Source: Eledone cirrhosa
Lineage: Eukaryota
Reading direction: 5' to 3'
Assembly (NCBI GenBank): GCA_964016885.1
Contig: OZ024743.1
Coordinates: 22,010,001-22,074,000 of the forward strand
DNA length: 64,000 bases
In this document: positions 2,777 to 62,816 of the stretch, piece by piece
Layout of the letters: each line of letters starts with the position of its first letter
Position numbering within the stretch: position 1 is the first letter of the stretch
Notes under the pieces: generated by a model
What the model was told of the DNA's origin: nothing
Seen by the model: only the letters and a program-made list of their open reading frames with translations
Database searches by the model: none
Program-made: the position numbers and the translations under genes

Positions 2777-2805
<29 letters not shown>

Positions 2806-2809
<4 letters not shown>

Positions 2810-2994
2810 TGTTTCTACTTTTGGCACAAGGCCAGCAATTACCCCAGTATATTACTGGTACTTTATTTTATCGACCCCATAAGGATGAAAGGCAAAGCTA
2901 ACCTCGGCGGGATTTGAACTCAGAATGTAAAGGACCGAAACTCTATGTTGCAAATCATAGTGTCCGACACTACCGATTCTACCAATCCACCACC
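2806..2994 (-). mobile_element. tRNA-derived SINE, family A (Meta/Sauria-type central domain, (ATT)n tail)
   Basis: A-box-like head, B box GAGTTCAAATCC, core GCCTTTCATCCTTAYGGGGTCGATAAAATAAAGTACCAG, tail AGTAGAAACAATTATT; more than 10 copies in the window. Confidence 0.85.
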
Positions 2995-11529: not shown

Positions 11530-13222
11530 AAATGGGAGGAAGAGATGCTAACCCCAACCTACCCAACAGAAGGACTAGCCATTGCATTAAAGTTGACAGT
11601 TATAGGATTAAGGAAGCAATCAAAGAGATGAAAAAGGTTAAAGCTGCAAGACCCTCAGAAATAGTTGCTGAGATACTAAAGGCATCTGGAGAAGTAGGAG
11701 TTGAACTGATAACATGCATAGTCAATCAGGTAATACAGGACGGAGTGATACCCAATGACTGGCGCAGCAGTACAATCATAAATTGCTACAAGGGCAAAGA
11801 TGATTCTCTAGAAAGGAGCAACTATTGAGGAATAAAACTAATGGACCAAGTTATGAAAGTGATGGAAAGAGTTATAGCACAACTAATCAGAGAACGAGTC
11901 AAATTAAATGAGATGCAGTTTGGTTTTATGCCTGGGAAAAGTACTGCAGTAGCTCTCTTCTTTAAAAATAAGCCACTATATCTAACTTTCATTGATCTAG
12001 AAAAAGCCTTTGACAGAGCATCTTGATCTATTATCTGGTGGTCCTTCAGGAAATTAGGTGTAGAAGAATGGCTGGTGAGAGCAGTGCAAGCCATATACAG
12101 AGGAGCTGTCAGCAAAGTGAGAGGAGGAAGTGAGTTCAGTGAGGAATTCAAGGTACAGGTAGGAGTTCATCAGGGTTTGGTTCTTAGTCCACTACTATTC
12201 ATCATAGTTCTCCAGGCTATGACAAAGAAGCTTAAGACTGACTGCTCTATGCAGATGATCTGGTCCTTATAGCCAAATCCATTAAAGAACTAAAAAATAT
12301 GTTCCGACTATGGAAACTGAATGTGGAATCAAAAGGTATGAGAGTAAACTTAGTCAAAACTAAAGGGCTAGTGAGTATGAGAGGAGATAGGACCCTGATT
12401 CCTTCAAGGAAGTGGCCCTGCCTAATATGTAGAAAAGGTGTAGGGATGAATTCTACACAATGGATGAGTTCTATACAATATACAATGTAAATCTTGGGTA
12501 CACAAGAAATGTTGTGGGATAACAAGTAGGCTAAAAGGAAAGGAGGACTTTTTAAGTAGAAGATGCACATGAGTAACTGAGGGGAAGAGTGCCAATGATG
12601 TAGACCTTTTCCAGTTGCAGGAAAGATTCATAGAAGTGGTTGATAACTTCTGCTATCTAGGTGACTTAATTATCAATGGAGGAGGGTGCTCTGAGAACAT
12701 AGAAGTTAGAAATAAGGATAGGATGGAAAATGTTTAGAGAGTTACTCCCACTGTTGACCACAAAAGGTTTCTCCCTATATACAAAAGGACAACTATAAGT
12801 GTGTGAAGTGTGATGTTTCATCGTAGTGAAACGGGCTGTGACTGCAGAGAATATGCATAAACTGGAGAGAAGCAACCATGAAGCAACCATGCTTCGTTGG
12901 ATGTGCAATGTAAGTATGAGAGAAAGGCAGAGCTTGGATGAGTTGAGGGAGCAGCTGGGTTTGCAAGGAATCTGAGGGGGTGTGCAGGAGAGAATACTGC
13001 ATTGGTATGGACATGTGATGTACATGGATAATGACTAATGAGTTAAGAAATGCCAGGAAATCCCAGTAGAGGTAGACCAAAAAAGACCTGGGTGGAGTTT
13101 GTGAGAGCTGACCTCAAATCGCTGAAACTCACAGAGGAGGTGATGAAGGAACGCGATGACTGGAGAGATACTGTGCTGACAATAACCCATGCAACCATGG
13201 GAAACATAGACATAAAATGATA
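11530..13222 (+). mobile_element. Decayed RTE-clade LINE (RT to 3' end)
   Basis: IPNDWRSSTIINCYKGK, MQFGFMPGKST, FIDLEKAFDR, VGVHQGLVLSPLLF, ADDL; many stops and frameshifts. Confidence 0.9.
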
Positions 13223-17101: not shown

Positions 17102-18131
17102 CACCTCATTCTTGGACTGGTACTTTATTTATTGAAATCAAAAGGATGAAATTTAAAGTTGACCTTGGTGGGATTTGAACTCAGAGCACAGTGACCCAGA
17201 ATATATACCAAGACATCCACACACCTACTAAAATCCATTGAATTTGTTGGGTACCAGCAAAGACTTCATTTCCAATTATTAAAGAGATATACTTCTTGGT
17301 GTCTTTTCCCAGAGAACATAATCCCAGCAGTGAAAGTTATGGAAATACTGGTCAATTATGCAATACACCCATTGTACAAAAGCACTGAACTGTACTTCCA
17401 TATGATATCTATCAACCAAAAAAGTTGATAGGTTTATAAAGAGATAAGTGTTGTGGCATAGGATTCAATGAAGCATTTCTAATAATGTATCCACAAACTT
17501 GTTCAGTCGGCTGTAACTCTCATTCATCACTTGAAAAATGGTGAATATTTAGAATATATAATTAGAATGACTGAATGTACAGGATCAAATATGAAGGAGT
17601 GAAGGCGATAGAAACAGAAAAGAATATTTGCTACATTTCTCATTTTCATTTTTTAGTAATAAAAGTGAAACATTACTTATTAAATACTTCTCCAAATTGG
17701 AAAGTCAAGGACAATGTCAACAATTTGTAACTACAAAGAAGATTAATTTAAAGAATATAATTTTAAATAAAGCTATAATTTTCCTACAAACAGGTATGTT
17801 AATTGTTTAATCAAAGTAATTTTATTCAACAAATTTCAATTAAATTATATAATGATTGCATTAACTTTTTAAAATTAAATAATGAAATTAAGAGGAAGGC
17901 TGAGCAAGTAGCTGATACTACATCCCAGTCTATGTGGTAAATCTTAGATGCATCCTACAGATAAAATGGTGAAAGCATTTCCAGAGAGAACATCCAGTGA
18001 TGCCTGTTACATCAGCCACACCACCTCATGGGACTTCTACCTCAGGCAGGATGCACAGTGTGAACAAGCATTTATAAAAATATTACTGGTACTAATTTTG
18101 TATGTGCAATACGTGTTTTTCTAATGAACTA

Positions 18132-18251
18132 ATAATTGTTTCTACTTTAGGCACAAGGCCAGCAATTACCCAGTGCATTACTGGTACTTTATTTTATCGA
18201 CCCCGTAAGGATGAAAGGCAAAGTCAACCTCGGCGGGATTTGAACTCAGAT
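18132..18251 (-). mobile_element. SINE family A, 5'-truncated
   Basis: Core and tail match the family. Confidence 0.8.
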
Positions 18252-18299
18252 CAATAATACTACACAGTATGTATGTTAATCTACAACATCAAGTGTAGA

Positions 18300-26757: not shown

Positions 26758-26809
26758 AATAAAGGATAAATAGTAATCACCCACTCCACCTATTCCACTA
26801 TTATACATG

Positions 26810-28165
26810 AAATATAATTACCACCAATAAACTCTCACCCCTCTCTATAACCCACTACATACCGCACTCTCTTTCACAATTCCCCTCTCTCACTAGTCCA
26901 CCAAATTCTCTCCCCCTCTCTATAATCCACTACATACCCCACACTCTCTCACTCCCACAATAACCCCTCTCTCACAAAACCAACAAATTTTCTCCTGCTC
27001 TTTATATCTCACTATATACCTCACTCTCGCTCACAATTCCCCTCTCTCACTAGACCACCAAATTCTCCCTCCCCCTCCCCCATTACTCTATACTACTACA
27101 TACCTCACTCACTCTCACTTTCACAATAGCCCCTCTCTCACCAGGTCAATTAACTCTATCCCTCTTTCTGTAACCCACTACACTTCTGACTCTCTCTCAC
27201 AATTACCCCTCTTTCACTAGACCACCAAATTCTCTCCCCCTCTCTATATTCCACTAAATACCTCACATTTCCCCCCTCTTAATTCCCCCTCTCTCACAAA
27301 ACCAACAAATTCTCTCCAGCTCTGTATATTCCACTACATAACACACACTCTCTCTCTCACAATTCTCCCTCTCTCACTTGACCACCAAGTTCTCCTCCTC
27401 TCTATATTCCACGACATACATCACTCTCTTAATTCTCCCTCTTTCACTAAATCAACAAATTCTCTCCCACTCTCTATATACCACTATATAACTCACACTC
27501 TCTCACTAGACCACCACATTCTCTCCCCCTCTCTATATTCCACTACATGCCTCAATCTCTGTCACTCTCTTAATTCCCCCTCTCTCGCGTGAGCTACAAA
27601 TACTCCCCTCTATCTATATTCCACTATATACTCCATTCTCTCTCACTCTCTCAATTAGCCCTCTCTCACTAGACCATTAATCTATCTCCCCCTCTCTATA
27701 TCCCACTACATACCTCACTCTCTCTCACAATTCCCCCTCTCTCACTAAACCAACAAATACTCTTCCGCTCTCTCTATCCCACTACATACCTCACTCTCGC
27801 TCACAATTCTCCCTCTCTCACTAGACCAACAAATTCTCTCCACCTCTCTATATTCCACTATATACTCCACTCTCACAATGCCCCTCTCTCACAAGGCCGA
27901 TAAACCCTCTCCCTCTCTCTATAACCCACTACATACCTCACTCTCCCTCTTAATTCTCCTCTCTCACTAAACCTACAAATTCTCCCCTTCTCTATATTCC
28001 ACTACATCCGCACTCTCTCTCACTCTCACATTACCCTCTCACTAAACCAACAAATTCTCTCCCGCTCTCTGTATCCCAATACATACCTCACTTTCTCTCT
28101 CTCACAATTCCTTCTCTCTCATTAGACCAACAAATTCTCTCTCCTTCTGTATATCCCACTACATG
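26810..28165. repeat. CT-rich minisatellite, unit about 75-80 bp, roughly 17 copies
   Basis: Recurrent CCACTACATACCTCACTCTC...CACAATTCCCCTCTCTCACTAGACCACCAAATTCTCTCCCCCTCTCTATA. Confidence 0.9.
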
Positions 28166-28696
28166 TTTTACATTGAAGCAAATGTTTTCATCTTCTGTAG
28201 AGAGCGACAAAGTTTTCCATACTCTTCCCCACCTTTTGAACTCTGGGGTGTGGGGGGAGATCTTTTTTTTGTAGTGTACCTTGACAAGAGTTTAAAATAT
28301 GTAGTGGAAGTTGGTGGTGGTGGTAGGGTGGTGTTGTCGGCGGTGTTTGTTTATTTTGAATCTATCTATCTGTCTGTCTATTTACCAATCAGTCTACCTA
28401 TCTATCTATCTATCTATCTATCTATATACTACTAAAACTCTGTGATTGTGTGCTTGCCTGTAATGTAATACAGTCAAAACGGCGCATAATGGGAAAATAC
28501 CTTGAAAGGAAGTTGCCCCTGAAATGAGAATACAAATAAGTTTCGCGTAAATCGGAGACGGGTCCCGAAATACGGGTTTTTTCCGGGTACCTTCATAAAT
28601 AGAGAGAGAGAGGGAAAGATAGCGAGAAAGAGATAGTGGTTATGAGAGAGTAGATTGAAAGAGAGACATATATATATATATAAATGAAAAGTATAG

Positions 28697-28750
<54 letters not shown>

Positions 28751-28836
28751 AAAGTTATATTTAAATTGTTGGGTTAACAACGAGTAAATATTTATAACTG
28801 ATATAAAAGCACTCAACAAGTATTTGGAGTATATTT

Positions 28837-29242
28837 ATGATATTAAATAAATGGAAACTATATTTATAAAACCATATTTATTTCGTTATATATATTTCAG
28901 GGATATCATATTAACAATATGTTATGCCATCTTCAGACAAAATACAATATAAACAGTCTTATAAATAAATAGATACGACATACCTTTCAATCACCTTGCA
29001 TTTGTGAGGTTGATTTGGCAGTAAAAAATATTGTGGACAGTTGTAAAAAGAAAGAGATAAAGAGAGAAAGAAAGAGAAACGAAGAAAAAGAAGAAATGTA
29101 TGTGACTAAATAGAGGAATATAGAAAGATAGATAAAGAGAAGAACTTCATGTAAAGAAACAGAGAGAAATATATAGAGAGAGAGGAAAAAAGAAAGAGAT
29201 AGATAGAGATAGATAGAGAAATTAGGAAGTTGAGTATCGGTT
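28837..29242 (-). repeat. Inverted 5' pseudo-LTR of PLE 1
   Basis: Reverse complement of 32548-32953; I spotted only two mismatches by eye. Confidence 0.95.
28879..28944 (-). ncRNA. Minimal type I hammerhead ribozyme in the inverted pLTR
   Basis: Reverse complement of 32846-32911. Confidence 0.8.
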
Positions 29243-29338
29243 ATAAATATTTACTCGTTGTTAACCCAACAATTTAAATATAACTTTCCATGTATCTTGC
29301 TCCAATACTGTTGAGCGCTTTATACTATAACTGAAAAA

Positions 29339-31552
29339 ATGGAATTCTTTAAGATTACTTCCTCTTTAAAAGACATACCTCTACCTAGAAACAAAGACTT
29401 TATAAAACAATTAATAGATAAATCTGACTCTTTTATAAGGAGAATCAGGTGGCGAGCATTCCACTTTGATAAATCTAATATAAATGAAAATGTCTCGGAC
29501 TTAAACAAAGTTTTCAAATCCAAAAGAAATCCACCCCCCAACAAACTTTTATCTGACTTTGAAAACGATATAATTTCTATCATACAAGGAGTCAAATTTA
29601 AGAGAAACTTCAAAGGCCAGGAATATCTGAAAGGCATTAGGGATAATATTGTGAACTTGGAGAAAACTGAGAAGATCTTGGTAAAATCTGACAAGACCAA
29701 CAACCTCTATGGAGTGCAGAAAGACATGTATAATGGCCTCATACTAAAAGAACTGAGGAAAAAGTACAAGGTAGCAGATAAGGCCGAGCTAGAGAAATTG
29801 AATGTTGAGGCATCTTGTATAATGCACGAGTTGGAAATCGAGAACAGAACACAACCTTTCGTGCCCAGGAAACCGAAGATCAATATGAAAGATCATAAGA
29901 GAAATTTCGAGAATGACTTGCCAGTCAGATTGATTGCACCATCAAAATCGGACCTGGGTAAACTAAGCAAAAACATTCTTGACAGGGTGATACAGCAAAT
30001 TAAAAACTTGAGTTGTTTACCTAACCTGAGCTTGTGGAAGGGAACTGGTGAGGTTGTTGAGTGGTTTAAGCAAATTAAATATAACAATAATAATAAGTTT
30101 ATTCAACTTGATATTGCTAACTATTATTCTTCCATTACCCCTAATCTACTAAATAAGGCACTAAATTACGCATTCAAACATACAGACCTAACTAGCAATG
30201 AAATGCACATTATATTATCGGCTAGGAAAACATTGATAGAATTTAATGACCAACTATGGACCCGAGCAGATAGAGATAACAATTTTGACATTACTATGGG
30301 ATCATCCGACTCAGCTCAGGTAACTGACCTTGTGGGCTTATTTTTAATCAATTCGCTGCATAGGAAAACACCTGGTACTACCGGAGGTTTATATAGAGAT
30401 GACATGCTTTTACTTATTGATAATAATAACTCTGAACTAAATAGAAAAAGAAAACAAATTACACAATTTTTTAATCACTTTAATCTAAAAATAGAAATTG
30501 AGAATAACCATAGAATAGTCAACTTCCTAGATATAACATTAAATCTCAACACATGTCTTCACTATCCATTTCACAAGTTGAATGAAAACTTAAACTATGT
30601 CAGCTTTAACTCTAACCACCCCAAATCTGTTAAAAATACTATAGTAAACTCTGTTCAATCACGTATCTCTAGAATCTCATCTAATAAAAAGATTTTCGAC
30701 GAAAAAGCCCATTATTACAATGAAGCGTTAGCTAGAGCAGGATATAGTGATAAAATTATGTACATAGATAATGATAAACAAATTAAACAAAATAACAACT
30801 ATTTTAATTATGGCCACAACCTTAACAACTATAATAGAAAGCATTACAATAATTCCAAAAGCCATAAAAGAAATAGAACTAGGAATATAATATGGTTTGC
30901 CCCCCCTTTCTCACTAAACATTAAAACCCACATTGCTAAACTATTTTTTAAAGCTCTCGATAATCGCTTCCCTAGAACACATAGGTATCACTCAATTTTC
31001 AATAGACATACTATAAAACTAACCTACTCATCCACCAAAAATTTAGCGCAAAATATTAATAGAATAAATAACAGGAACTTAAAACCTAGCGATAATACCA
31101 TAAATAATATCCAAGTTAACAAATGTAACTGTAGAGATAGATCTAAATGTCCGTTAAATAACAACTGCTTAGTTAAAAATATAATATACAACTGTAATGT
31201 TAAAACGGACATTAATTCTTTTAACTACGTTGGTTCTACATCGACGGAATTTAAACTTCGCTATAACAACCACAGGAATTCTTTCACAGATCCATCCAAA
31301 AAATCTTCAACAGCACTATCAGGCGTACTCTGGCAACTTAGGCATGATAACGTTAGATATTCGACGACTTGGAATATAGTTTCAAGGGGGATTCCTTTTA
31401 ATTCATCCTCTGAGACATGTGACCTCTGTGCGGAGGAGATATTCTTTATACTAAAATCTAAAAATTCCCTTAATCTACGGACAAATTTATTCAGTTGCTG
31501 CAGACATAGATTGAACTCAACGTTTAAATATAAATTTAAATTTAAAATGTAG
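29339..31552 (+). CDS. PLE reverse transcriptase + GIY-YIG endonuclease (737 aa)
   Basis: KSDKT (DKG-equivalent), QLDIANYY, ITMGS, YRDD, NFLDITL; linker CNCRDRSKCPLNNNC; NIIY...YVGST; C-terminal CDLC...CRH. Confidence 0.95.
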   Translation: MEFFKITSSLKDIPLPRNKDFIKQLIDKSDSFIRRIRWRAFHFDKSNINENVSDLNKVFKSKRNPPPNKLLSDFENDIISIIQGVKFKRNFKGQEYLKGIRDNIVNLEKTEKILVKSDKTNNLYGVQKDMYNGLILKELRKKYKVADKAELEKLNVEASCIMHELEIENRTQPFVPRKPKINMKDHKRNFENDLPVRLIAPSKSDLGKLSKNILDRVIQQIKNLSCLPNLSLWKGTGEVVEWFKQIKYNNNNKFIQLDIANYYSSITPNLLNKALNYAFKHTDLTSNEMHIILSARKTLIEFNDQLWTRADRDNNFDITMGSSDSAQVTDLVGLFLINSLHRKTPGTTGGLYRDDMLLLIDNNNSELNRKRKQITQFFNHFNLKIEIENNHRIVNFLDITLNLNTCLHYPFHKLNENLNYVSFNSNHPKSVKNTIVNSVQSRISRISSNKKIFDEKAHYYNEALARAGYSDKIMYIDNDKQIKQNNNYFNYGHNLNNYNRKHYNNSKSHKRNRTRNIIWFAPPFSLNIKTHIAKLFFKALDNRFPRTHRYHSIFNRHTIKLTYSSTKNLAQNINRINNRNLKPSDNTINNIQVNKCNCRDRSKCPLNNNCLVKNIIYNCNVKTDINSFNYVGSTSTEFKLRYNNHRNSFTDPSKKSSTALSGVLWQLRHDNVRYSTTWNIVSRGIPFNSSSETCDLCAEEIFFILKSKNSLNLRTNLFSCCRHRLNSTFKYKFKFKM

Positions 31553-32547: not shown

Positions 32548-32948
32548 AACCGATACTCAACTTCCTAATTTCTCTATCTATCTCTATCTATCTCTTTCTT
32601 TTTTCCTCTCTCTATATATATTTCTCTCTGTTTCTTTACATGAAGTTCTTCTCTTTATCTATCTTTCTATATCCCTCTATTTAGTCACATACATTTCTTC
32701 TTTTTCTTCGTTTCTCTTTCTTTCTCTCTTTATCTCTTTCTTTTTACAACTGTCCACAATATTTTTTACTGCCAAATCAACCTCACAAATGCAAGGTAAT
32801 TGAAAGGTATGTCGTATCTATTTATTTATAAGACTGTTTATATTGTATTTTGTCTGAAGATGGCATAACATATTGTTAATATGATATCCCTGAAATATAT
32901 ATAACGAAATAAATATGGTTTTATAAATATAGTTTCCATTTATTTAAT

Positions 32949-32953
<5 letters not shown>
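32548..32953 (+). repeat. 3' pseudo-LTR of PLE 1
   Basis: Matches 28837-29242 inverted; ends at (TA)n. Confidence 0.95.
32846..32911 (+). ncRNA. Minimal type I hammerhead ribozyme; predicted cleavage after 32903
   Basis: Stem I UAUUUUGU/ACGAAAUA, CUGAAGA, stem II with a CAUAUU/AAUAUG hairpin, GAAA, palindromic stem III AUAUAUAU, AUA site. Confidence 0.8.
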
Positions 32954-33032
<79 letters not shown>

Positions 33033-36651: not shown

Positions 36652-38130
36652 TTATCATCATCATCATCATTTTACGTCTGCTTTTCCCTGCTTGCAAGGG
36701 TGGGACGGGTCTTATTCAGCACAGCATCTCTCCACTTGTCACGGTCCTTCGTCATCTCCACCGTGAGCTTCAGCGATCTGAGGTCTGTTCTCAACACCTC
36801 CGCCCATGTTTTTCGTGGTCTACCTCTACCACGTCTTCCTTCAACTGGCATTTCCTGGCACTTCTTCATCCATCGGTCATCCTCCATGCGCATCACATGT
36901 CCATACCACCTCAGTCTCCTCTCTCGCACCCTGCATTCTATCCCTCTAAGACACAGTTTCTCTCTCAACACATTCATGCTGGGTCGTTCACGCACATTGA
37001 CACTGCACATACAATGGAGCATGCTTGCCTCATTTCTCTCCAGCCGTTGCATATCCTCTGCAGTTGCTGCTCATGTCTCACTACCATGCAGCATCGCACT
37101 CCTCACACAGGCATCATATAACCGGCCTTTCGTACGCAGGGAGAAACTCTTCTTCGTCAGCAGAGGAAGCAGCTCCCTAAACGTCTTCCAACCTGTCCTT
37201 ATTCTAGATACTATGGCCTCGGAACACCCCCCTCCCATGCTAATCTGATCTCCTAGGCTATCCACCACTTCTATAGCACCCGCCTGCATTTGAAAAATGT
37301 GTCTATCAATGCGACTTCTACTGTCTAATTTCCCTGTACATCTACTGCATATGTACTTCTCCCTACCTGTTAGTTTGCCTGCTATCCCACTACATCTCTT
37401 GTGTACCTAGGATCTGCATTGTGTGCATTTTATAGAATTTATGCCAGTTCCTTTTCTGCATATCGAACATGGCCATTTCCCTGAAGGGATCAGAGTTTTG
37501 TCCTCTTTTCTACTCATCAACACTTTTGTCTTAGCTAGGTTCACTGCTTGCAACTGCAGTTTCCATAGCCAGAATTTATTCTCTAGCTCCTCTACTGATT
37601 CTGCTATAAGAACCAGATCATCAGCACAGAGAAGTTCCCATGGACAGCCAGTCATAAACTCCTCTGTTATGGCTTGGAGGACTTTAATGAACAAGAGCGG
37701 GCTGAGGACTGAACCTTGATGTACTCCTACTTGTATCTGGAATTCCTCACTAAACTCCATTCCTACCCTGACTTTACTGAGAGTACCTCTGTACAAAGTT
37801 TGCACTGTCCTCACAAGCCATTCCTCAACACCTTGTTTCCTTAGGGACCACCAGATGACAGATTGGGGTACTCTATCAAAGGCCTTCTCTAGGTCAACAA
37901 AGGCTAAGTATAGTGGCTTATTTTTCTCTAAGAACCTCTCTTGCAATTGTCTCACCAAGAAGAGTGCATCTGTTATACTCTTCCCAAGCACAAAACCAAA
38001 CTGTATCTCATCTAGTTTGACCCTTTCTCTAATTAGTTGTGCTAATATCCTTTCTGCCACTTTCATAACCTGATCCATGAGTTTTATACCCCTATAATTG
38101 CTCCTCTCCAGAGCATCCCTTTACCTTTGT
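36652..38130 (-). mobile_element. Decayed RTE LINE (RT to 3' end, (GAT)n tail)
   Basis: ORFs 38078-37407, 37289-37071 and 37052-36672: QFGF, FVDLEKAFDRV, GVHQGSVLSPLLF, ADDL, LHGSET, RRLRWYGHV. Confidence 0.92.
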
Positions 38131-38363
38131 AGCAAACTTGCTAGAAGGCAGCACTTGCCTCTCCACCCTGATTTTTCCCTTCATGTTTTAAACTTGAAAA
38201 AGTTAATCAGGGATTCGCCGAAGAGGAAAGTGTCTGTCTTTAACCCTTTCAACCTTGTCCACCACACAATCTCTTTCGCCATGGCCACCAGGCAGATGAA
38301 AACTGCCTGCCCTTCCTCCTCGAAGGAAGACGGTGAGACCATCTGCACAATGGACTCAGTCGA
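38128..38363 (-). mobile_element. Probable Tx1/L1 ORF2 C-terminal fragment fused to the RTE
   Basis: Reads QAVFICLVAMAKEIVWWTRLKGL...LINFFKFK, similar to the AK..IW..R motif at L1/Tx1 ORF2 C-termini. Confidence 0.55.
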
Positions 38364-38662
38364 TAATAATTGTTTCTACTTTAGGCACAAGGCCAGCAAT
38401 TACCCAGTACATTACAGGTACTTTATTTTATCAATCCCGTAAGGATGAAAGGCAAAGTTGACCTCGGCGGGATTTGAACTCAGAATGGAAAGGGCCGTAA
38501 TTCTATGCGTCAAAGCATGGCGTCTGACCCTCTACCGATACTGCCAATCCACAATAATAATTGTTTCTACTTTAGGCACAAGGCCAGCAATTACCCAGTG
38601 TGTTACTGGTACTTTATTTTATTGACCACGTAAGGATGAAAGGCAAAGTTAACCTTGGCAGG
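38364..38662 (-). mobile_element. Two tandem SINE family A copies (38364-38552 near full length; 38554-38662 truncated)
   Basis: Core and tail repeated, separated and followed by (AAT)n. Confidence 0.85.
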
Positions 38663-45440: not shown

Positions 45441-46883
45441 GTCCATTTTCTTTACTTTTTATGTAATAATAATTTTGGAATCTATGCTAGAATTTGTTTA
45501 TGTTTTGTTTGAATCTATTCTTATTCCTTTCCTCCTCCTTCACATCATCATCATCATCGCTGTCCTTGTCATTATCGTCATCATCATCATCAGCAGCAGC
45601 AACTCCAATAAACTGAAGATAAATAGAATTCTCACAAGTAATGTGTGTTTTACATGTGCTTTTTACAGCTTGCATGAGGTGACTGGTTTAATCATTGGAA
45701 GCAATTGTCTTTTTACACCTGGGGTGTCTATTCTACTGCTAATCATTCAACCATGAAGGAAGGAGAAGAATATAACATTAATTAAGACAATAACTGAGGA
45801 AATGATCCTGAGACATCATCCACATAAAACAATAGTTGAGTGAATACTAACATATTCAATGTATAGTGAACAAAAATATTTAAATAATTAAAATTGACTT
45901 TACAGCAACAGAAGGGGAATATCAATTCACTTACTACCGTTAATCAAAATTGGTTAAGACTAAGGGATGAAAACTCTAAAATTCTAATTAATCAAACTTT
46001 AAATTATGCATGCAGTAACGATATGAGAACATTAATTCAAAGTAGAATATTAATTGTACACCAAACTGCTTGAAATTACCTCTGGTTTTATGATATAAAG
46101 CTAAGTATTCTGTGTTTATATTTAACTAAAATCTTTGCTTCATAATTATATGTAAGAACCTTTGTGAAGTTATATTCCAAACACCAGATAAATAATGAAA
46201 CAGTTATTTATATTACTAAATCTCTCCAAATTCTTGATTATTACAAAAATAAATAAATTGCAAATCGTAGGCAATGTCTTTCATTAGAAATACAATAACA
46301 AGAGAGTTAATTTGATCTAAACTGAAGCTTGTAGGGGCAGAACATAAGAACTGAAGTAAATATTTGAACTTATGAACTCTGTTGTTACTTCAGCATTTTC
46401 ACCCCTTCCAGAGCCATTATATATATATTATAGTTTCTAATTTAGGGACTAGGTCAGTCATTTGGAGAAGAGGGAAATATTGATTAAATAGGCCTTAGTA
46501 CTTGGATGGAGTTTTATTTTATCAACCACAAACTGATGAAATGCAAAGTTGACCTCTGCTGGATTTGAACTCAAAATGTTAAGAGCCACAAAATACCATA
46601 AAGCATTTTTTTCCAGGGCTTTAAAAATTCTGCTAATCCATCTCAGTCTATAATAGTTTCTAACAAAGATAAAAGGCCAGGAATTTGAGGGAGGGAATAG
46701 TTGACTGGTATTTTATTTCAATTCCTCAGAAAGGATTAAACTGTAGTTGACAACAGCAAGATTTGAACTAAGAATGGAACGGAAATATCATAATTGAATA
46801 CTGCCTGGCATTGTTTCTGTTGCTCCAATGAATCTACCAATCCTCATCTCATTCTATACATTTGTACCGATATCTGTATCCTA

Positions 46884-47073
46884 ATAATTGTTTCTACTTT
46901 TGGCACAAGGCCAGCAATTATCCCAGTGTATTACTGGTACTTTATTTTATCGACCCCGTAAGGATGAAAGGCAAAGTTAACCTCGGCGGGATTTGAACTC
47001 AGATCATAAAGGGCCATAACTCTTTGCTGCAAAGCATGGCGTCAGACCCTCTACCGATACTGCCAATCCACCA
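46884..47073 (-). mobile_element. SINE family A within a cluster of older copies (about 46435-47265)
   Basis: Near-identical to 50008-50197. Confidence 0.9.
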
Positions 47074-48080: not shown

Positions 48081-48976
48081 TTACGGTATGTTATACTTCA
48101 AAGGGAATAAAATATTCTGCTTCAAAAGGAATTTAAAAAATGAATATGTTTTCCTTAGAAAAAAAGCAAAAGTGCTTTTCTAGATGGAAAACGAAAGATT
48201 TATTTTTTTAATACAAAGGATAAATGGATTTAATATCTTTAAATACTTGTTCAAATCCATCATTATGAAAGGCATAATGCCACATAAACTCAATTACATG
48301 AGAGTTTAATTGTATGCAAGCAGTACCAATGTCTCATTTATTCTTCTTTTTACACAATTATACATTGATTTAATATACTTCCACCACACTAAATGATTTA
48401 TAGTATCTAGCTGGTACACTACTGTTCATGGTATACTTGACTGACATTATTAAATATTTTTTGTCTTTCATCATTTCATTTTCTATGGGTCCTAAGTAAT
48501 TTCACTCTCAGTTTTGGTTATGTTTTTTTGTGAAAAAGAAAGCACTCCCACCTTCACTTTTGACAAGGTAAACATCAGTAATAAAGCTAGGAGAACGGCA
48601 ATGGGGACAGTCCTATCAGGGTAACATTTTTATGGGGACCCCAATTTGAGATCTGTTGTATATATTTGATTGTGTGGGGTGTGGGGTATGAGAAGGGCAA
48701 CAACCTCAAGAGCTGCCCCAGGTAGCACACAATCTTTACACTACTAGGACAGTGTATTGGCAGAATTGTTAGAGTGTCTGACAAAATGTTTTACAATATT
48801 TAATTACAGTCCTTTATATTTTGAATTCAAATCCTGCCAGGGTCAACACTGTCTTTCATTTTTTCAGGATCAAGAAAAGAAAATACCATCAAGCTTTGGG
48901 GTTGAGTTGATTTCCCCCTCCAGAATTGCAGGCTTTATGCCTAAAGTAGATCATTATTTCTTTACACTTCGGTAAT

Positions 48977-49167
48977 GGCGGTAGATTGGCAGTATTGGTA
49001 GAGGGTCGGACACCATGCTTTGACGCATAGAGTTACGGCCCTTGCCATTCTGAGTTCAAATCCCGCCGAGGTTAACTTTGCCTTTCATCCTTACGGGGTC
49101 GATAAAATAAAGTACTAGTAATGCACTGGGTAATTGCTGGCCTTGTGCCTAACGTAGAAATAATTAT
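48977..49167 (+). mobile_element. SINE family A, full length
   Basis: Head, B box, core and tail. Confidence 0.9.
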
Positions 49168-50007
49168 TTCTTTACACTTCTGCAATCTTGTTTACTACAA
49201 ATTTAGTTCTCACTTTTCATTTAACAAAATTTCCAGAACAAAAAGTAAAGGTAAGTAAGTAAAAGTGTTTCCTGGGTGAAAAGTGATAGTTTTATTTACC
49301 TGTTTAATATAATGGACAGATCTGATATCTTTCAACAATTGTTTAAATCTGTCATCAGGAAAAAGAAATGTGTTGTGCTATATGTTTTAGCCCACCTTTG
49401 CATTATACTTTTACACTTCTGTATTTTCACATCATAATTAACTAATCTTCACCATGAAATTAAATCAAAGAGTTGAATAAACAAGACAAAGAATGAGAGA
49501 AGAAAAGTTACAGGAAATAAGAAAAAGTTTAAAACAAAACCAATGTACAAGAAAAACCACAAACATGAATGGTGCACATGGTATTAAAGCTGCTTGAGAA
49601 CTCACTAGAGTGTAGGAATATAGGTAAGTGAGATACAAGCTTCCAGCCCATCCCTGGGGTAAGTTACATCTTGAGTACCAGCCTGGTCTGCAGATGACCC
49701 GTTCAGCCCTTGCTAGCAGGGAAAGTGGATGTTAAATGATGGTGATAACGATGATGATAAAGAGAAAACATGTACAGTGAAGAGTGAGCTTGACAGAAAA
49801 TATGTTATGAAATAATGCAAATAAAGAATAGTGAACAGAACATCAGGAGAACCTTAAAAGGAATCCAGTATGACACAGAACCATGAAGAAAGAACAATTG
49901 CTTGAGAGGGTGTTGTAGTTTGCTTGAAGATTTGTGTGAAGTGTAGAAAATAGAATGTTTTATAAAAAGGCTTAAACAATGCAAATGGGACATTAAATGT
50001 TAAACAT

Positions 50008-58241: not shown

Positions 58242-58279
<38 letters not shown>

Positions 58280-58318: not shown

Positions 58319-58382
58319 TATTTTATTATATATATTTCAAGGGTACCAAGACAACATTGGTACGCTTTCATCAGATAAAATA
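58319..58382 (-). ncRNA. Minimal type I hammerhead ribozyme (3' pLTR of PLE 2)
   Basis: UAUUUUAU-CUGAUGA-AAGCGUACCAA/UUGGUACCCUU-GAAA-UAUAUA-UA-AUAAAAUA. Confidence 0.88.
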
Positions 58383-59358: not shown

Positions 59359-61579
59359 TTATAAGTTATATATAGTTATGAATGTTGAATGCAGGCGATG
59401 TCTACAAGAATTAAATAAATTCGTTCTTAGATTAATAGAGTTTTTACTGTTAAGTATGAAAAAAATTTCCTCAACGCACGATTTGCAGAATCTAGATAAA
59501 GCTGTGTTTCGGTACGCGGGTGCTTATGAAACTGTTTCCCAAGCTAAAGAATAGTCCATATTCTTGCATTTTAAGTTCCATATCAAGTTTGAAAGAGAAG
59601 TTGAAGATTTTTGATCAAATCTTAGGAATGAGCATTTGTGTTTATTCCAGCGATTTTTAAATTCTGTAGAAGTTGCACCGACATAAATATATTATCACTG
59701 GTTTTAACTGTTTATAGACCACGTTTTTATCTAAACAGTTATTTTGTAAAGGACAGTTTGATTTAATTCTAATTACATTTTGCTGAGTTGTTGTTCGGAA
59801 TGGTACTATTATGTTGGATATTGCTATTAGTTGGATATTGCTATTTTGGTTATTTTGGTTAGGGTTTAAATTTCTATTATTAATTCTATTTATATTTTGT
59901 GCTATGTTCATAGTAGTAGAGTAGGATAGTTTTATAGTATGTCTGTTAAAGATTGAGTGGTATCTGTGGGCTTTAGGAAAACATTTATCTAGTGCTTTAA
60001 AGAATAGCTTTGCTAAAGGTGTTTTTAGGCTTAATGAGAATGGGGGTGTGTACCAAATAATATTTCTAGTTCTAGTTCTTCTGTTAGTTTTAGAGTATAA
60101 GTTAAATTTTGTATTATAATTACAATTAATAGTAGGGTTATTTACCTTATTACTGTTGTCGATATATTTAATCTTATTTATATACCCTGCTCTATTTAAA
60201 GCTTCATTATAATATTCTGCCTTATCGTCAAAAATGTTTTTATTAGCGGAGATGCGTGAAATACGTTGTTGGACAGAATTGACAATAGTGTTCTTGATAG
60301 ATCTAGGATGATTAGAGTTAAAACTTACATAGTTTAGATTCTCATTAATTTTATGGAATGGATAGTAGAGCCCTGTGTTAAGGTTTAATGTTACGTCTAA
60401 AAAGTTTACAATTTTATAGTTATTCTCTATTTCTAACTTAAGGTTTGTAGCTATTGAAAAATTGTATTATGGATTTTCTTTTCCTATTAATTTCACAATT
60501 ATTATGATTTTCAATTAAAAGCAGCATATCATCACGATATAAACCTGGTATTTTTCTATGCAGTGTATTATTAATAAATAGCCCCACAATATCCGTTATT
60601 TGCGCCGAGCCAGATGATCCCATGGTGATATCAAAATTATTTTTTCTATCGGCTCTAGTCCAGAGATGATTGTTGAATTCAATTAAAGTTTTCCGTGCAG
60701 TTAAAATGATATGCATTTCTTCGCTAGATAAATATGGATGTTTAGATGCATAGATACTTTATTAAGTAAACTAGGAGTAATAGAGGAGTAGTAGTTTGCA
60801 ATATCCAATTGAATTAATTTTTTGTTACGTTTAAATTTTATGTTATTGAACCAATCTATAACCTCGTTAGTACCGTTCCGTAATTTTAGGTAAGATATTT
60901 CTTTAAGTTGCGGTATGATTCTATCTAATATATGTTTACTAACTATGCCTAAGTCTGATTTAGATGGTGCTATAAATCTAACTGGTAGTTCTATTTCAAA
61001 GTTTCTTTTGTGGTCTTTCAGGTTAATTTTCGGTCTTCTAGGTATAAAGGGTTCGGTCCTATTTTCGATGCCTAATTTATGAATTATTTCAGAAGCTTCT
61101 CTATTTACCATTTCAAGATCTTCATTAGTTGTTATTTTGTAGTTTTTCCTTAGTTCGTTCAATATAAGGTTATTGTATTCGTCCTTTTGCATTTCATATA
61201 GATTGTTAGTTTTGTCAGATTTTACGAGGATCTTCTCAGTTTTTTCAAGATTGTCTATATTATTCTTGAGGCCTTTAAGGTATTCCTGGCCTACAAATTG
61301 GTTTTTCTTGAATTTGATGTTTTGTATAATCGATATTATTTCATTTTCAAATTCCATTAATAGTTTGTTGTTAGGTGGATTTTTCTTGGATTTGAAGATC
61401 ATATCGAAGTTGTAACTGGATTTATTTGTTTTTTCATCTGATTTTCTATGAAAATGGAAGGCACGCCATCTATGGCTTCGTATAAAGGAGTCAGATTTCT
61501 CAATGAGTTGTTTAAGATAGTCCTTATTCTTAGGTAAAGGTACATCTTTTAGAGAAGAAGAAATCCTAAAGAATTCCAT
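59359..61579 (-). pseudogene. PLE 2 RT-GIY-YIG ORF with frameshifts
   Basis: Pieces 61579-60701, 60716-60438 (YRDD) and 59911-59657 (CPLQNNC) align by eye to the 737-aa ORF; ends SCRHRLHSTF. Confidence 0.92.
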
Positions 61580-61768: not shown

Positions 61769-61832
61769 TATTTTATTATATATATTTCAAGGGTACCAAG
61801 ACAACATTGCTACCCTTTCATCAGATAAAATA
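61769..61832 (-). ncRNA. Minimal type I hammerhead ribozyme (5' pLTR of PLE 2)
   Basis: As 58319-58382, with stem II AAGGGUAGCAA/UUGGUACCCUU. Confidence 0.88.
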
Positions 61833-62007: not shown

Positions 62008-62065
<58 letters not shown>

Positions 62066-62073
<8 letters not shown>

Positions 62074-62285
62074 TAACAGATTAAAGTTTAAGCAAAGAAT
62101 CGCTGCTTTCACCCTTAACGGGATCTGCTGAAACTAAACAAATTAATCTGTGAACGCAGAAGTAAATATTTTGAAAAACGTGGCAACTGAAGGAAGACAG
62201 GAAGACGATACTTTGGTTTCAGAAGATCCCGTTAAGGGTGAAAGCAGCGATTCTTTGCTTAAACTTTTTATCTGTTATTTTAATA
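62066..62285. mobile_element. (TA)n-flanked element with ~70-bp inverted arms
   Basis: 62066-62134 is the reverse complement of 62216-62285 with few differences. Confidence 0.8.
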
Positions 62286-62816
62286 AATATATATATATAT
62301 GTATATGTATATATATATATGTATATATATGTATATGTATATATATATATGTGTATTTATATGTATATATATATAAATATATATATATATACATATATAT
62401 ATATGTGTGTGTGCATGAAAGAGATGTAGTGTTGTATGTGTATGTGTGTATTATATATATGCGTGTAGTCATGTGTATCCCGGTTTTTAGAATAAGCGCA
62501 ATGTATCAAAACTAAGTACCAACATGAACGCTAATAATATAGAAATAAATACGTCCATTTCAGGAAACTATTGTAAAGTTTCCTTGCGGTTGTTTCAATG
62601 ATTATACATATCTTCTGATGTGAACCTAAATAGTTTCCAAAATCGATTTAAGATATTTCTTTCAATGTAAATGGAAGTACGTATATTTGGCATATTTACA
62701 TGACTATACAATGGTTAAATTTATATGCATACTTACGCAGTCCTCTTCAAAACATTGTTTTCCGTTTTGCCTTGTTTTTGTTCGTTGTCTTGTCTTCACT
62801 TTGTTAATTTTCCTAT

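What the first reader, a model, noticed from the sequence alone, without database searches (positions are those of the whole stretch)
32846..32953. pLTR hammerheads show compensatory change between two PLE families, plus an invariant terminus
Stem I is UAUUUUGU/ACGAAAUA in PLE 1 and UAUUUUAU/AUAAAAUA in PLE 2 (G-C to A-U, U-G to U-A). N7 differs (CUGAAGA/CUGAUGA), and stem II differs in sequence yet still pairs. Stem III is the palindrome AUAUAUAU, typical of PLE hammerheads thought to cleave as dimers, and here it mimics the (TA)n target. The ~45 nt from the ribozyme to the element end is essentially identical in both families, while the rest of the pLTR diverges.
Basis: partly seen in the sequence, partly recalled or inferred. 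Interest (0 to 1): 0.7.

Follow-up and report, generated by a model that had tools for sequence, protein, structure and literature searches.

The report
Penelope hammerheads and circular-template footprints
This is a predicted self-cutting RNA motif at the end of a very abundant known type of jumping gene, and the shapes of its genomic copies suggest the element is copied both from uncut capped RNA and, likely, from a ribozyme-made RNA circle that rebuilds its end repeats.

Summary
The sequence claims hold. Both elements are Hydra-type Penelope-like retrotransposons (PLEs) with type I hammerheads in their pLTRs, a known arrangement; this scan noted it before on other DNA of this genome. Corrections: the 47-nt exact match is confined to one subgroup (12 of 13 versus 0 of 37 core-selected hammerheads); stem II of PLE1 has three mismatches; stem III is constrained for self-pairing, not TA mimicry (49 of 100 copies read AUAUGUAU). 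Additions: stems I and II covary across 20 variants around a near-invariant C·C mismatch. Insertions are two arms, ending 50 and 138 nt past the predicted cut, each just before a conserved hairpin. Arms do not pile up at the cut. 48 of 114 stop about 135 nt upstream, a likely capped start (extra G in 14 of 46 PLE2 junctions). Yet 21 of 30 ORF-spanning copies run past that start, with own 5' and 3' repeats matching best (17 of 19). Best reading: capped uncut RNA gives short copies; dimer cleavage plus ligation likely gives a circle that regenerates pLTRs. Cleavage is untested; no RNA data were available.

The parts
32846..32911 (+). Type I hammerhead in the 3' pLTR of PLE1: stem I 32846-32853/32904-32911, core 32854-32860, stem II 32861-32891 (U.U, C.C, A.A mismatches), GAAA 32892-32895, palindromic stem III 32895-32902, predicted cut after 32903
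32906..32952 (+). 47-nt run identical to the PLE2 3' copy; conserved in subgroup A only; ends at inferred priming site 1 (about 32953, +50 from the cut)
32768..32768 (+). Inferred transcription start (A, -135 from the cut) where short arms end
32548..32953 (+). Part of the 3' pLTR of PLE1 that is repeated in the inverted 5' arm
   Evidence: I1, 99% complementary
29339..31552 (+). Intact 737-aa RT plus C-terminal GIY-YIG-type ORF with Hydra-clade motifs
28749..29242 (-). Inverted arm of PLE1: hammerhead (core 28936-28895, predicted cut 28887/28886), terminus, tail, ending at inferred priming site 2 (28749, +138)
28808..28831 (-). Bulged hairpin 1, starts 6 nt past site 1
29298..29319 (+). Bulged hairpin 2, starts 9 nt past site 2; base pair A-U of hairpin 1 is G-C here
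61769..61832 (-). Hammerhead in the 5' pLTR of PLE2 (predicted cut 61777/61776; inferred start 61904; hairpins 61718-61695 and 61626-61605)
58319..58382 (-). Hammerhead in the 3' pLTR of PLE2 (predicted cut 58327/58326; start-equivalent 58454; element end about 58274)
59380..61579 (-). PLE2 ORF, broken into four pieces that match P0001 at 56-74% amino-acid identity
61991..62010 (+). 20-nt inverted arm of PLE2 ending at site 2
   Evidence: read directly
32954..33026 (.). (TA)n target flank of PLE1 (also 28698-28748; PLE2 flanks about 62011-62068 and 58242-58273)

Best explanation
This is a predicted dimer-type hammerhead in the terminal repeat of a Hydra-type Penelope element; it likely cuts only when two copies pair through their palindromes, and the cut unit is likely ligated into a circle that serves as template for long copies. 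Shown in DNA: the conserved fold; two arms per insertion ending 50 and 138 nt past the cut; short arms ending about 135 nt upstream of the cut; long copies running past that point with matching repeats. Inferred: a capped transcript starts in the pLTR; the protein primes reverse transcription on both strands of a (TA)n target at two sites set by the twin hairpins; uncut capped RNA gives the short inverted copies; a template without a 5' end gives more-than-unit copies and so regenerates the pLTR. The 47-nt terminus is the first RNA copied from site 1 and is most likely a sequence-specific contact for this subgroup's protein (inferred, weak).
For: Fold: 88% of cells paired, 15 of 19 pairs with two-sided changes, 0 of 500 shuffles as high, slid controls 31-50%. 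48,101 core-plus-palindrome matches versus 111 control. One tail per inverted pair: 29 of 31 distinct pairs (12 duplicate rows removed by hand). Arm 5' ends: 48 of 114 in -146..-117, 2 in -10..+10. Extra G before the start base in 14 of 46 distinct PLE2 junctions with (TA)n; of the 15 with a letter fitting neither host nor element, 14 are G (hand count); extra G marks capped templates in LINE-1 (PMC11702581, passage). Partner arms share template class: 13 both at the start, 14 both beyond, 2 mixed, of 43 pairs (p 3e-6). ORF-spanning arms: 21 of 30 pass the start, 3 stop there, 0 at the cut (hand count). Own 3' repeat is closer than any other 5' repeat in 17 of 19, tied in 2; no recurring 5'/3' difference, no indel from the start to +40. 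A U.U at the base of helix II is compatible with cleavage in axolotl HHR_Amex2 (PMC7229834 section 15). The circle model was proposed in PMC4209133.
Against: No cleavage, ligation or circular RNA was observed. The Anolis PLE inserts from uncut RNA in vitro and hammerhead mutants do not change insertion (PMC11167929). About half of the arms come from RNA not cut at the hammerhead. 5'/3' repeat differences are more frequent upstream of the start (57 of 7480) than downstream (10 of 3213, p 0.007), mostly in a microsatellite-like block; this could fit tandem source copies. The 21-of-24 versus 45-of-93 contrast compares older subfamilies with the youngest; a matched count failed because the reference was too divergent. 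The core lacks the canonical G10.1-C11.1 pair. The cap G is ambiguous in PLE1, where most Gs could come from the inverted arm, and a crude test against 17% G gave only p 0.018.
Confidence: 0.5

Rival explanations
1. The template is always linear and uncut; more-than-unit copies come from reverse transcriptase jumping from the capped 5' end to the matching 3' repeat, and the hammerhead fold serves RNA turnover, translation control or protein binding.
For: Short arms show uncut capped templates; PAc uses unprocessed RNA; no ends at the cut; five AUGs lie between the start and site 2, so the leader needs some control.
Against: Random jumping would give many mixed pairs, but 2 of 29 were mixed; no indel scar from the start to +40 in 19 long copies; matching the start-to-+40 region in both repeats needs two jumps.
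Confidence: 0.25
2. Long copies come from read-through transcripts of tandem source arrays; the hammerhead cuts those precursors or rides along.
For: Partial tandems are typical of PLEs (PMC2377424); higher 5'/3' difference upstream of the start; a partial tandem of two arms in line occurs at L194.
Against: 19 long copies from several subfamilies each match their own repeat best, with no recurring 5'/3' difference; linear copying from an internal start shortens arrays each cycle.
Confidence: 0.17
3. The shared 47 nt results from recent recombination between the two families rather than selection (rival for the terminus only).
For: No covariation and no stable fold in it; template switching is common at these junctions.
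Against: It is 95% alike across 21 representatives whose stem II (68%) and tail (77%) differ on both sides (partly selected on the terminus); 12 of 13 core-selected subgroup copies keep 90% or more; two crossovers would be needed repeatedly.
Confidence: 0.15

Closest known systems
[quoted passage not shown]
   Same: Type I, in both pLTRs, sense strand, weak palindromic helix III, long helix II, dimer model, proposed circular template.
   Different: No extra base between 9 and 10.1; G10.1-C11.1 replaced by U.U or A-U in subgroup A; 8-bp stem I; near-invariant C.C at stem II pair 4; AUA cleavage triplet.
Hydra clade of C-terminal EN+ PLEs (Craig et al. 2021, PMC8557442; passages, section 11, supplement part 2 of 59 and term searches)
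   Same: DKT, RWK-like (RWR), CxCx5C, CxxC and CxH motifs; (TA)n target; hammerhead near the 3' end; U.U at the base of stem II in many listed Hydra hammerheads; inverted 5' copy and a tail at one end.
   Different: Unit is 3.75-4.0 kb, not under 3 kb; none of the Hydra hammerheads in their File S2 has the AUAUAUAU stem III, an AUA triplet or the C.C; Hydra-1_oBim has a different hammerhead and is another family; tail is 88 nt, not 30-40.
Poseidon of Anolis carolinensis, PAc (Frangieh et al. 2024, PMC11167929; parts 1-2 of 4 read)
   Same: Two internal start sites bracketing the tail, both strands of AT-rich DNA extended, uncut RNA used, no ends at the hammerhead cut.
   Different: Other clade; here each site lies just 5' of its own conserved hairpin in non-coding RNA; the evidence is genomic, and adds a capped start and a second template class.
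Axolotl retrozyme HHR_Amex2 (PMC7229834; passages and section 15 read)
   Same: U.U at the base of helix II, 2-bp helix III with tetraloop; cleaves weakly alone, better as a dimer; circles found in tissue.
   Different: Non-coding tandem repeats of about 350 bp with canonical loop contacts; here an autonomous element with a long stem II.

Membership tests
Type I hammerhead ribozyme | Core CUGANGA and GAAA, free N7 | tested here: met
   (core columns were part of the search pattern)
Type I hammerhead ribozyme | Stems I and II pair with covariation | tested here: met
   6 of 8 and 9 of 9 pairs change on both sides
Type I hammerhead ribozyme | NUH cleavage triplet | tested here: met
   AUA at 32901-32903; H17 is A in 99 of the first 100 listed copies
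Type I hammerhead ribozyme | G10.1-C11.1 pair | tested here: not met
   U.U in PLE1, A-U in PLE2, G-C in families B and C; U.U has active precedent
Type I hammerhead ribozyme | Self-cleavage | not testable with these tools
   needs bench work; no Rfam hit
PLE minimal/dimer hammerheads | Palindromic, monomer-unstable helix III | tested here: met
PLE minimal/dimer hammerheads | Unpaired base between positions 9 and 10.1 | tested here: not met
   the register without a bulge pairs across families
Hydra clade PLE | DKT, RWK, CxCx5C, CxxC, CxH motifs; no CCHH | tested here: met
   read by eye in P0001 against section 11 and the supplement alignment; RWK is RWR; Pfam gave no hit
Hydra clade PLE | Insertion into (TA)n | tested here: met
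   177 of 190 locus rows end in (TA)n (duplicates included)
Hydra clade PLE | Generally under 3 kb | tested here: not met
   unit 3747-3997 nt in 19 copies; given as typical, not strict
Hydra clade PLE | Placement in the RT phylogeny | not tested
   no tree with the published Hydra proteins was built; 17 mostly unnamed homologs at 33-39% identity
Non-LTR retrozyme | Non-coding head-to-tail repeats of a few hundred bp | tested here: not met
   both window elements carry an ORF; short copies are inverted pairs

The most novel reading that the evidence does not exclude
The genome holds a readable record of two PLE templates: capped uncut RNA that yields short inverted copies, and a hammerhead-made circle of unit length that yields more-than-unit copies and regenerates the pseudo-LTR. 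This would give PLE hammerheads a defined role. The ribozyme is a distinct subtype (3 bp, C.C, extended stem II; AU palindrome; AUA cut).
Probability: 0.4. Interest if true: 0.72.

Novelty: new variant of a known kind. Interest (0 to 1): 0.48.

Why it matters
What PLE hammerheads do and how pseudo-LTRs are regenerated are stated open questions (PMC8557442; PMC2377424). This family is young, has an intact ORF and tens of thousands of hammerhead copies, and gives exact coordinates for the start, the cut, both priming sites and their hairpins, so the circle model becomes directly testable.

Tried and rejected
No RNA holder listed for the element; laying two coded contig runs only showed that U is the common letter at 32905. 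Rfam: no hammerhead hit at gathering or E up to 10. Pfam: no family for P0001. The 32-nt terminus word has 0 matches in metagenome contigs. Terminal hairpin in the 47 nt: rejected, z 0.09 and 0.36; single-sequence z-scores for the hammerheads are also unremarkable (0.52, -1.38). Ends at the cut: 292 places have (TA)5 before it, but of 30 read, 20 were intact hammerheads with a longer palindrome or a changed GAAA, 7 TA-joined, 3 fold-backs (hand count); fold-backs near the cut 61 versus 93 in a control window. Intron around the hammerhead: donor-like GTATGT at 32807 is conserved, but no conserved acceptor and no spliced copy in the loci held; not supported. Linking families B-G to Hydra ORFs: not shown; they are grouped by shared hammerhead, hairpin and (TA)n ends. 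Arm classes in older subfamilies: unreliable. Lunse et al. (PMC5785218) is not held; known only as cited in PMC6765202.

Full report
Setting. The window is G000:C4:22010001-22074000 in a 3.0-Gb genome, probably an octopus (a recalled guess from a repeat seen; not tested). It holds two related elements. PLE1 lies on the plus strand: (TA)n, an inverted arm 28749-29242, an intact 737-aa ORF 29339-31552, a 3' region ending at about 32953, (TA)n. PLE2 lies on the minus strand with direct repeats and an ORF in four pieces, 56-74% identical to P0001. P0001 shows DKT, RWR, CxCx5C, CxxC and CxH, the marks of the Hydra clade (by eye). Pfam gave no family.

Observation. The exact match is 47 nt, 32906-32952; the next longest run between the elements is 18 nt and ORF identity is 70%. 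PLE1 stem II pairs at 11 of 14 positions, with U.U next to the core. This is a family trait: 350 exact copies, and 45 of the 51 matches listed for the 154-nt end are 100% identical over the full length, so the subfamily is young.

The hammerhead across the genome. The core plus AU palindrome occurs 48,101 times, control 111. On 20 hand-picked variants, 88% of cells pair, 15 of 19 pairs change on both sides, 0 of 500 shuffles reach the score, and slid controls pair at 31-50% (related sequences inflate the shuffle test). Pair 4 of stem II is C.C in 91 of 106 distinct variants (58 of 64, 11 of 13, 6 of 7, 7 of 11, 9 of 11 by group) while its neighbours swap among G-C, U-A and A-U. Stem III: of the first 100 of 33,368 subgroup copies, 48 read AUAUAUAU, 49 AUAUGUAU, 1 AUACGUAU, 2 other (hand count). 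The common variant keeps an 8-bp duplex through tandem U-G (-2.2 versus -3.2 kcal/mol); its mirror image, which would not pair, was not seen. These copies are not independent events, but they favour dimer pairing over target mimicry. Closing stem III in the monomer costs 2.5-2.9 kcal/mol.

The terminus. A 32-nt word of it occurs 23,625 times, control 0. Among 50 hammerheads chosen by core alone, 12 of 13 in subgroup A keep 90% or more of it and 0 of 37 others do. It has no notable fold. What all groups share is its length, about 50 nt, and a bulged hairpin just beyond it. That lead came from earlier scan notes and was tested here: hairpin 1 starts at +56, 6 nt past the usual 3' end, and hairpin 2 at +147, 9 nt past the second end, with an A-U to G-C change at the base.

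How insertions are built. In 29 of 31 distinct inverted pairs one arm ends at +50 and the other carries the tail; none has two tails. This matches the two internal start sites of the Anolis element. I mapped 68 insertions of the young subfamily, taken from the first 100 of 350 matches. Of 114 arms, 48 begin at -146..-117, 45 farther upstream, 12 at -116..-11, 2 at -10..+10, 7 beyond. The sample needs an intact core in one arm, so ends at the cut were tested apart: 0 of 31 rows chosen by the terminus begin at the cut (by eye); fold-backs near the cut number 61 against 93 in a control window; about 7 of 30 read among 292 TA-preceded places are true joins. The pile-up centres on A32768. In PLE2 the matching base is preceded by G in 14 of 46 distinct joins to (TA)n, by T in 15, C in 16 and A in 1; T fits the host and C the element, G fits neither, as for capped LINE-1 RNA. 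So a capped RNA, uncut at the hammerhead, is a main template.

A second template class. Partner arms agree: 13 pairs both stop at the start, 14 both pass it, 2 are mixed, 14 involve a shorter arm (43 pairs). Of the first 30 of 130 arms that span the tail-to-ORF junction, 21 extend upstream of the start, 3 stop there, 1 at -75, 5 in terminus or tail, 0 at the cut. In 19 of 20 such insertions fetched whole (one lacked a 3' hammerhead match), the 5' repeat is closer to its own 3' repeat than to any other 5' repeat in 17 and tied in 2, with 11 differences in 3325 nt from the start to +40 and none recurring. This is what copying one RNA segment twice would give. Against it: differences are about twice as frequent upstream of the start, and the two samples are not matched in age.

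Mechanism. Shown: fold, copy architecture, end positions. Inferred: transcription from the pLTR, twin priming at hairpin-defined sites, dimer cleavage of the two sense hammerheads of a direct-repeat copy such as PLE2, ligation to a circle, more-than-unit copying. I put this at 0.5, jumping on linear RNA at 0.25, tandem sources at 0.17. The window's PLE1 has only one sense hammerhead and its long arm starts inside the tail, so it likely could not make such a circle alone.

Known and new. Hammerheads in pLTRs, dimer cleavage, the circle proposal, tails and inverted copies are published. U.U at the base of stem II appears in many Hydra hammerheads and in an active axolotl ribozyme. I found no description of the C.C subtype, of this family, or of genomic evidence for two templates in searches; these cover open-access text only, and Lunse et al. 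and the supplements of PMC4209133 were not seen. The bioRxiv retrozyme paper (parts 1-2 of 5) added nothing on these points. This scan has already noted these hammerheads, the end rule and the twin hairpins elsewhere in this genome; a word search for the cap and circle reading returned nothing. Verdict: real, a new variant of a known kind; interest 0.48.

Noticed in passing
window 28831-28790 (-) and 29298-29335 (+); PLE2 61718-61680 and 61626-61590 (-): Beyond the twin hairpins, the words after them are mutually complementary (AGUGCU with AGCRCU; UCAGUUAUA with UAUAACUGA), a possible alternative long-range pairing or pseudoknot across site 2.
   Followed up: no
window 32807 (+), 39 nt after the inferred start: Donor-like GTATGT is conserved in subgroup A; Drosophila Penelope has an intron 46 nt after its start. 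No acceptor or spliced copy found.
   Followed up: partly
L136:321-407 and 515-600: A further hammerhead family with stem III AUACGCAU, not a perfect palindrome, and a different terminus.
   Followed up: no
L141-L170: In about 18 of 30 loci the stem III palindrome is longer by one or two TA units inside an intact hammerhead; 7 have long (TA)n directly at the cut, which may be nested insertions into the palindrome.
   Followed up: partly
L229, L020, L202, L203, L218: Short repeats of the first 10-25 nt of the transcript at arm junctions, as if the RT re-copied the 5' end several times.
   Followed up: no
window 2803-2971, 18129-18297, 38363-38552, 46882-47072, 48974-49168 and others: Many copies of one short interspersed repeat on both strands (D15-D17, I5-I8); one copy sits inside a PLE tail at L047.
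   Followed up: no
window 62071-62131 and 62244-62288: A short inverted repeat of about 60 nt next to the (TA)n flank of PLE2; the same sequence follows a PLE end in L069.
   Followed up: no
window 26800-28170: Degenerate CT-rich tandem array with units near 76 nt and strong strand skew.
   Followed up: no
window 11802-13206 and 36689-38117: Two diverged inverted copies (73-80%) of another repeat with ORF remnants.
   Followed up: no
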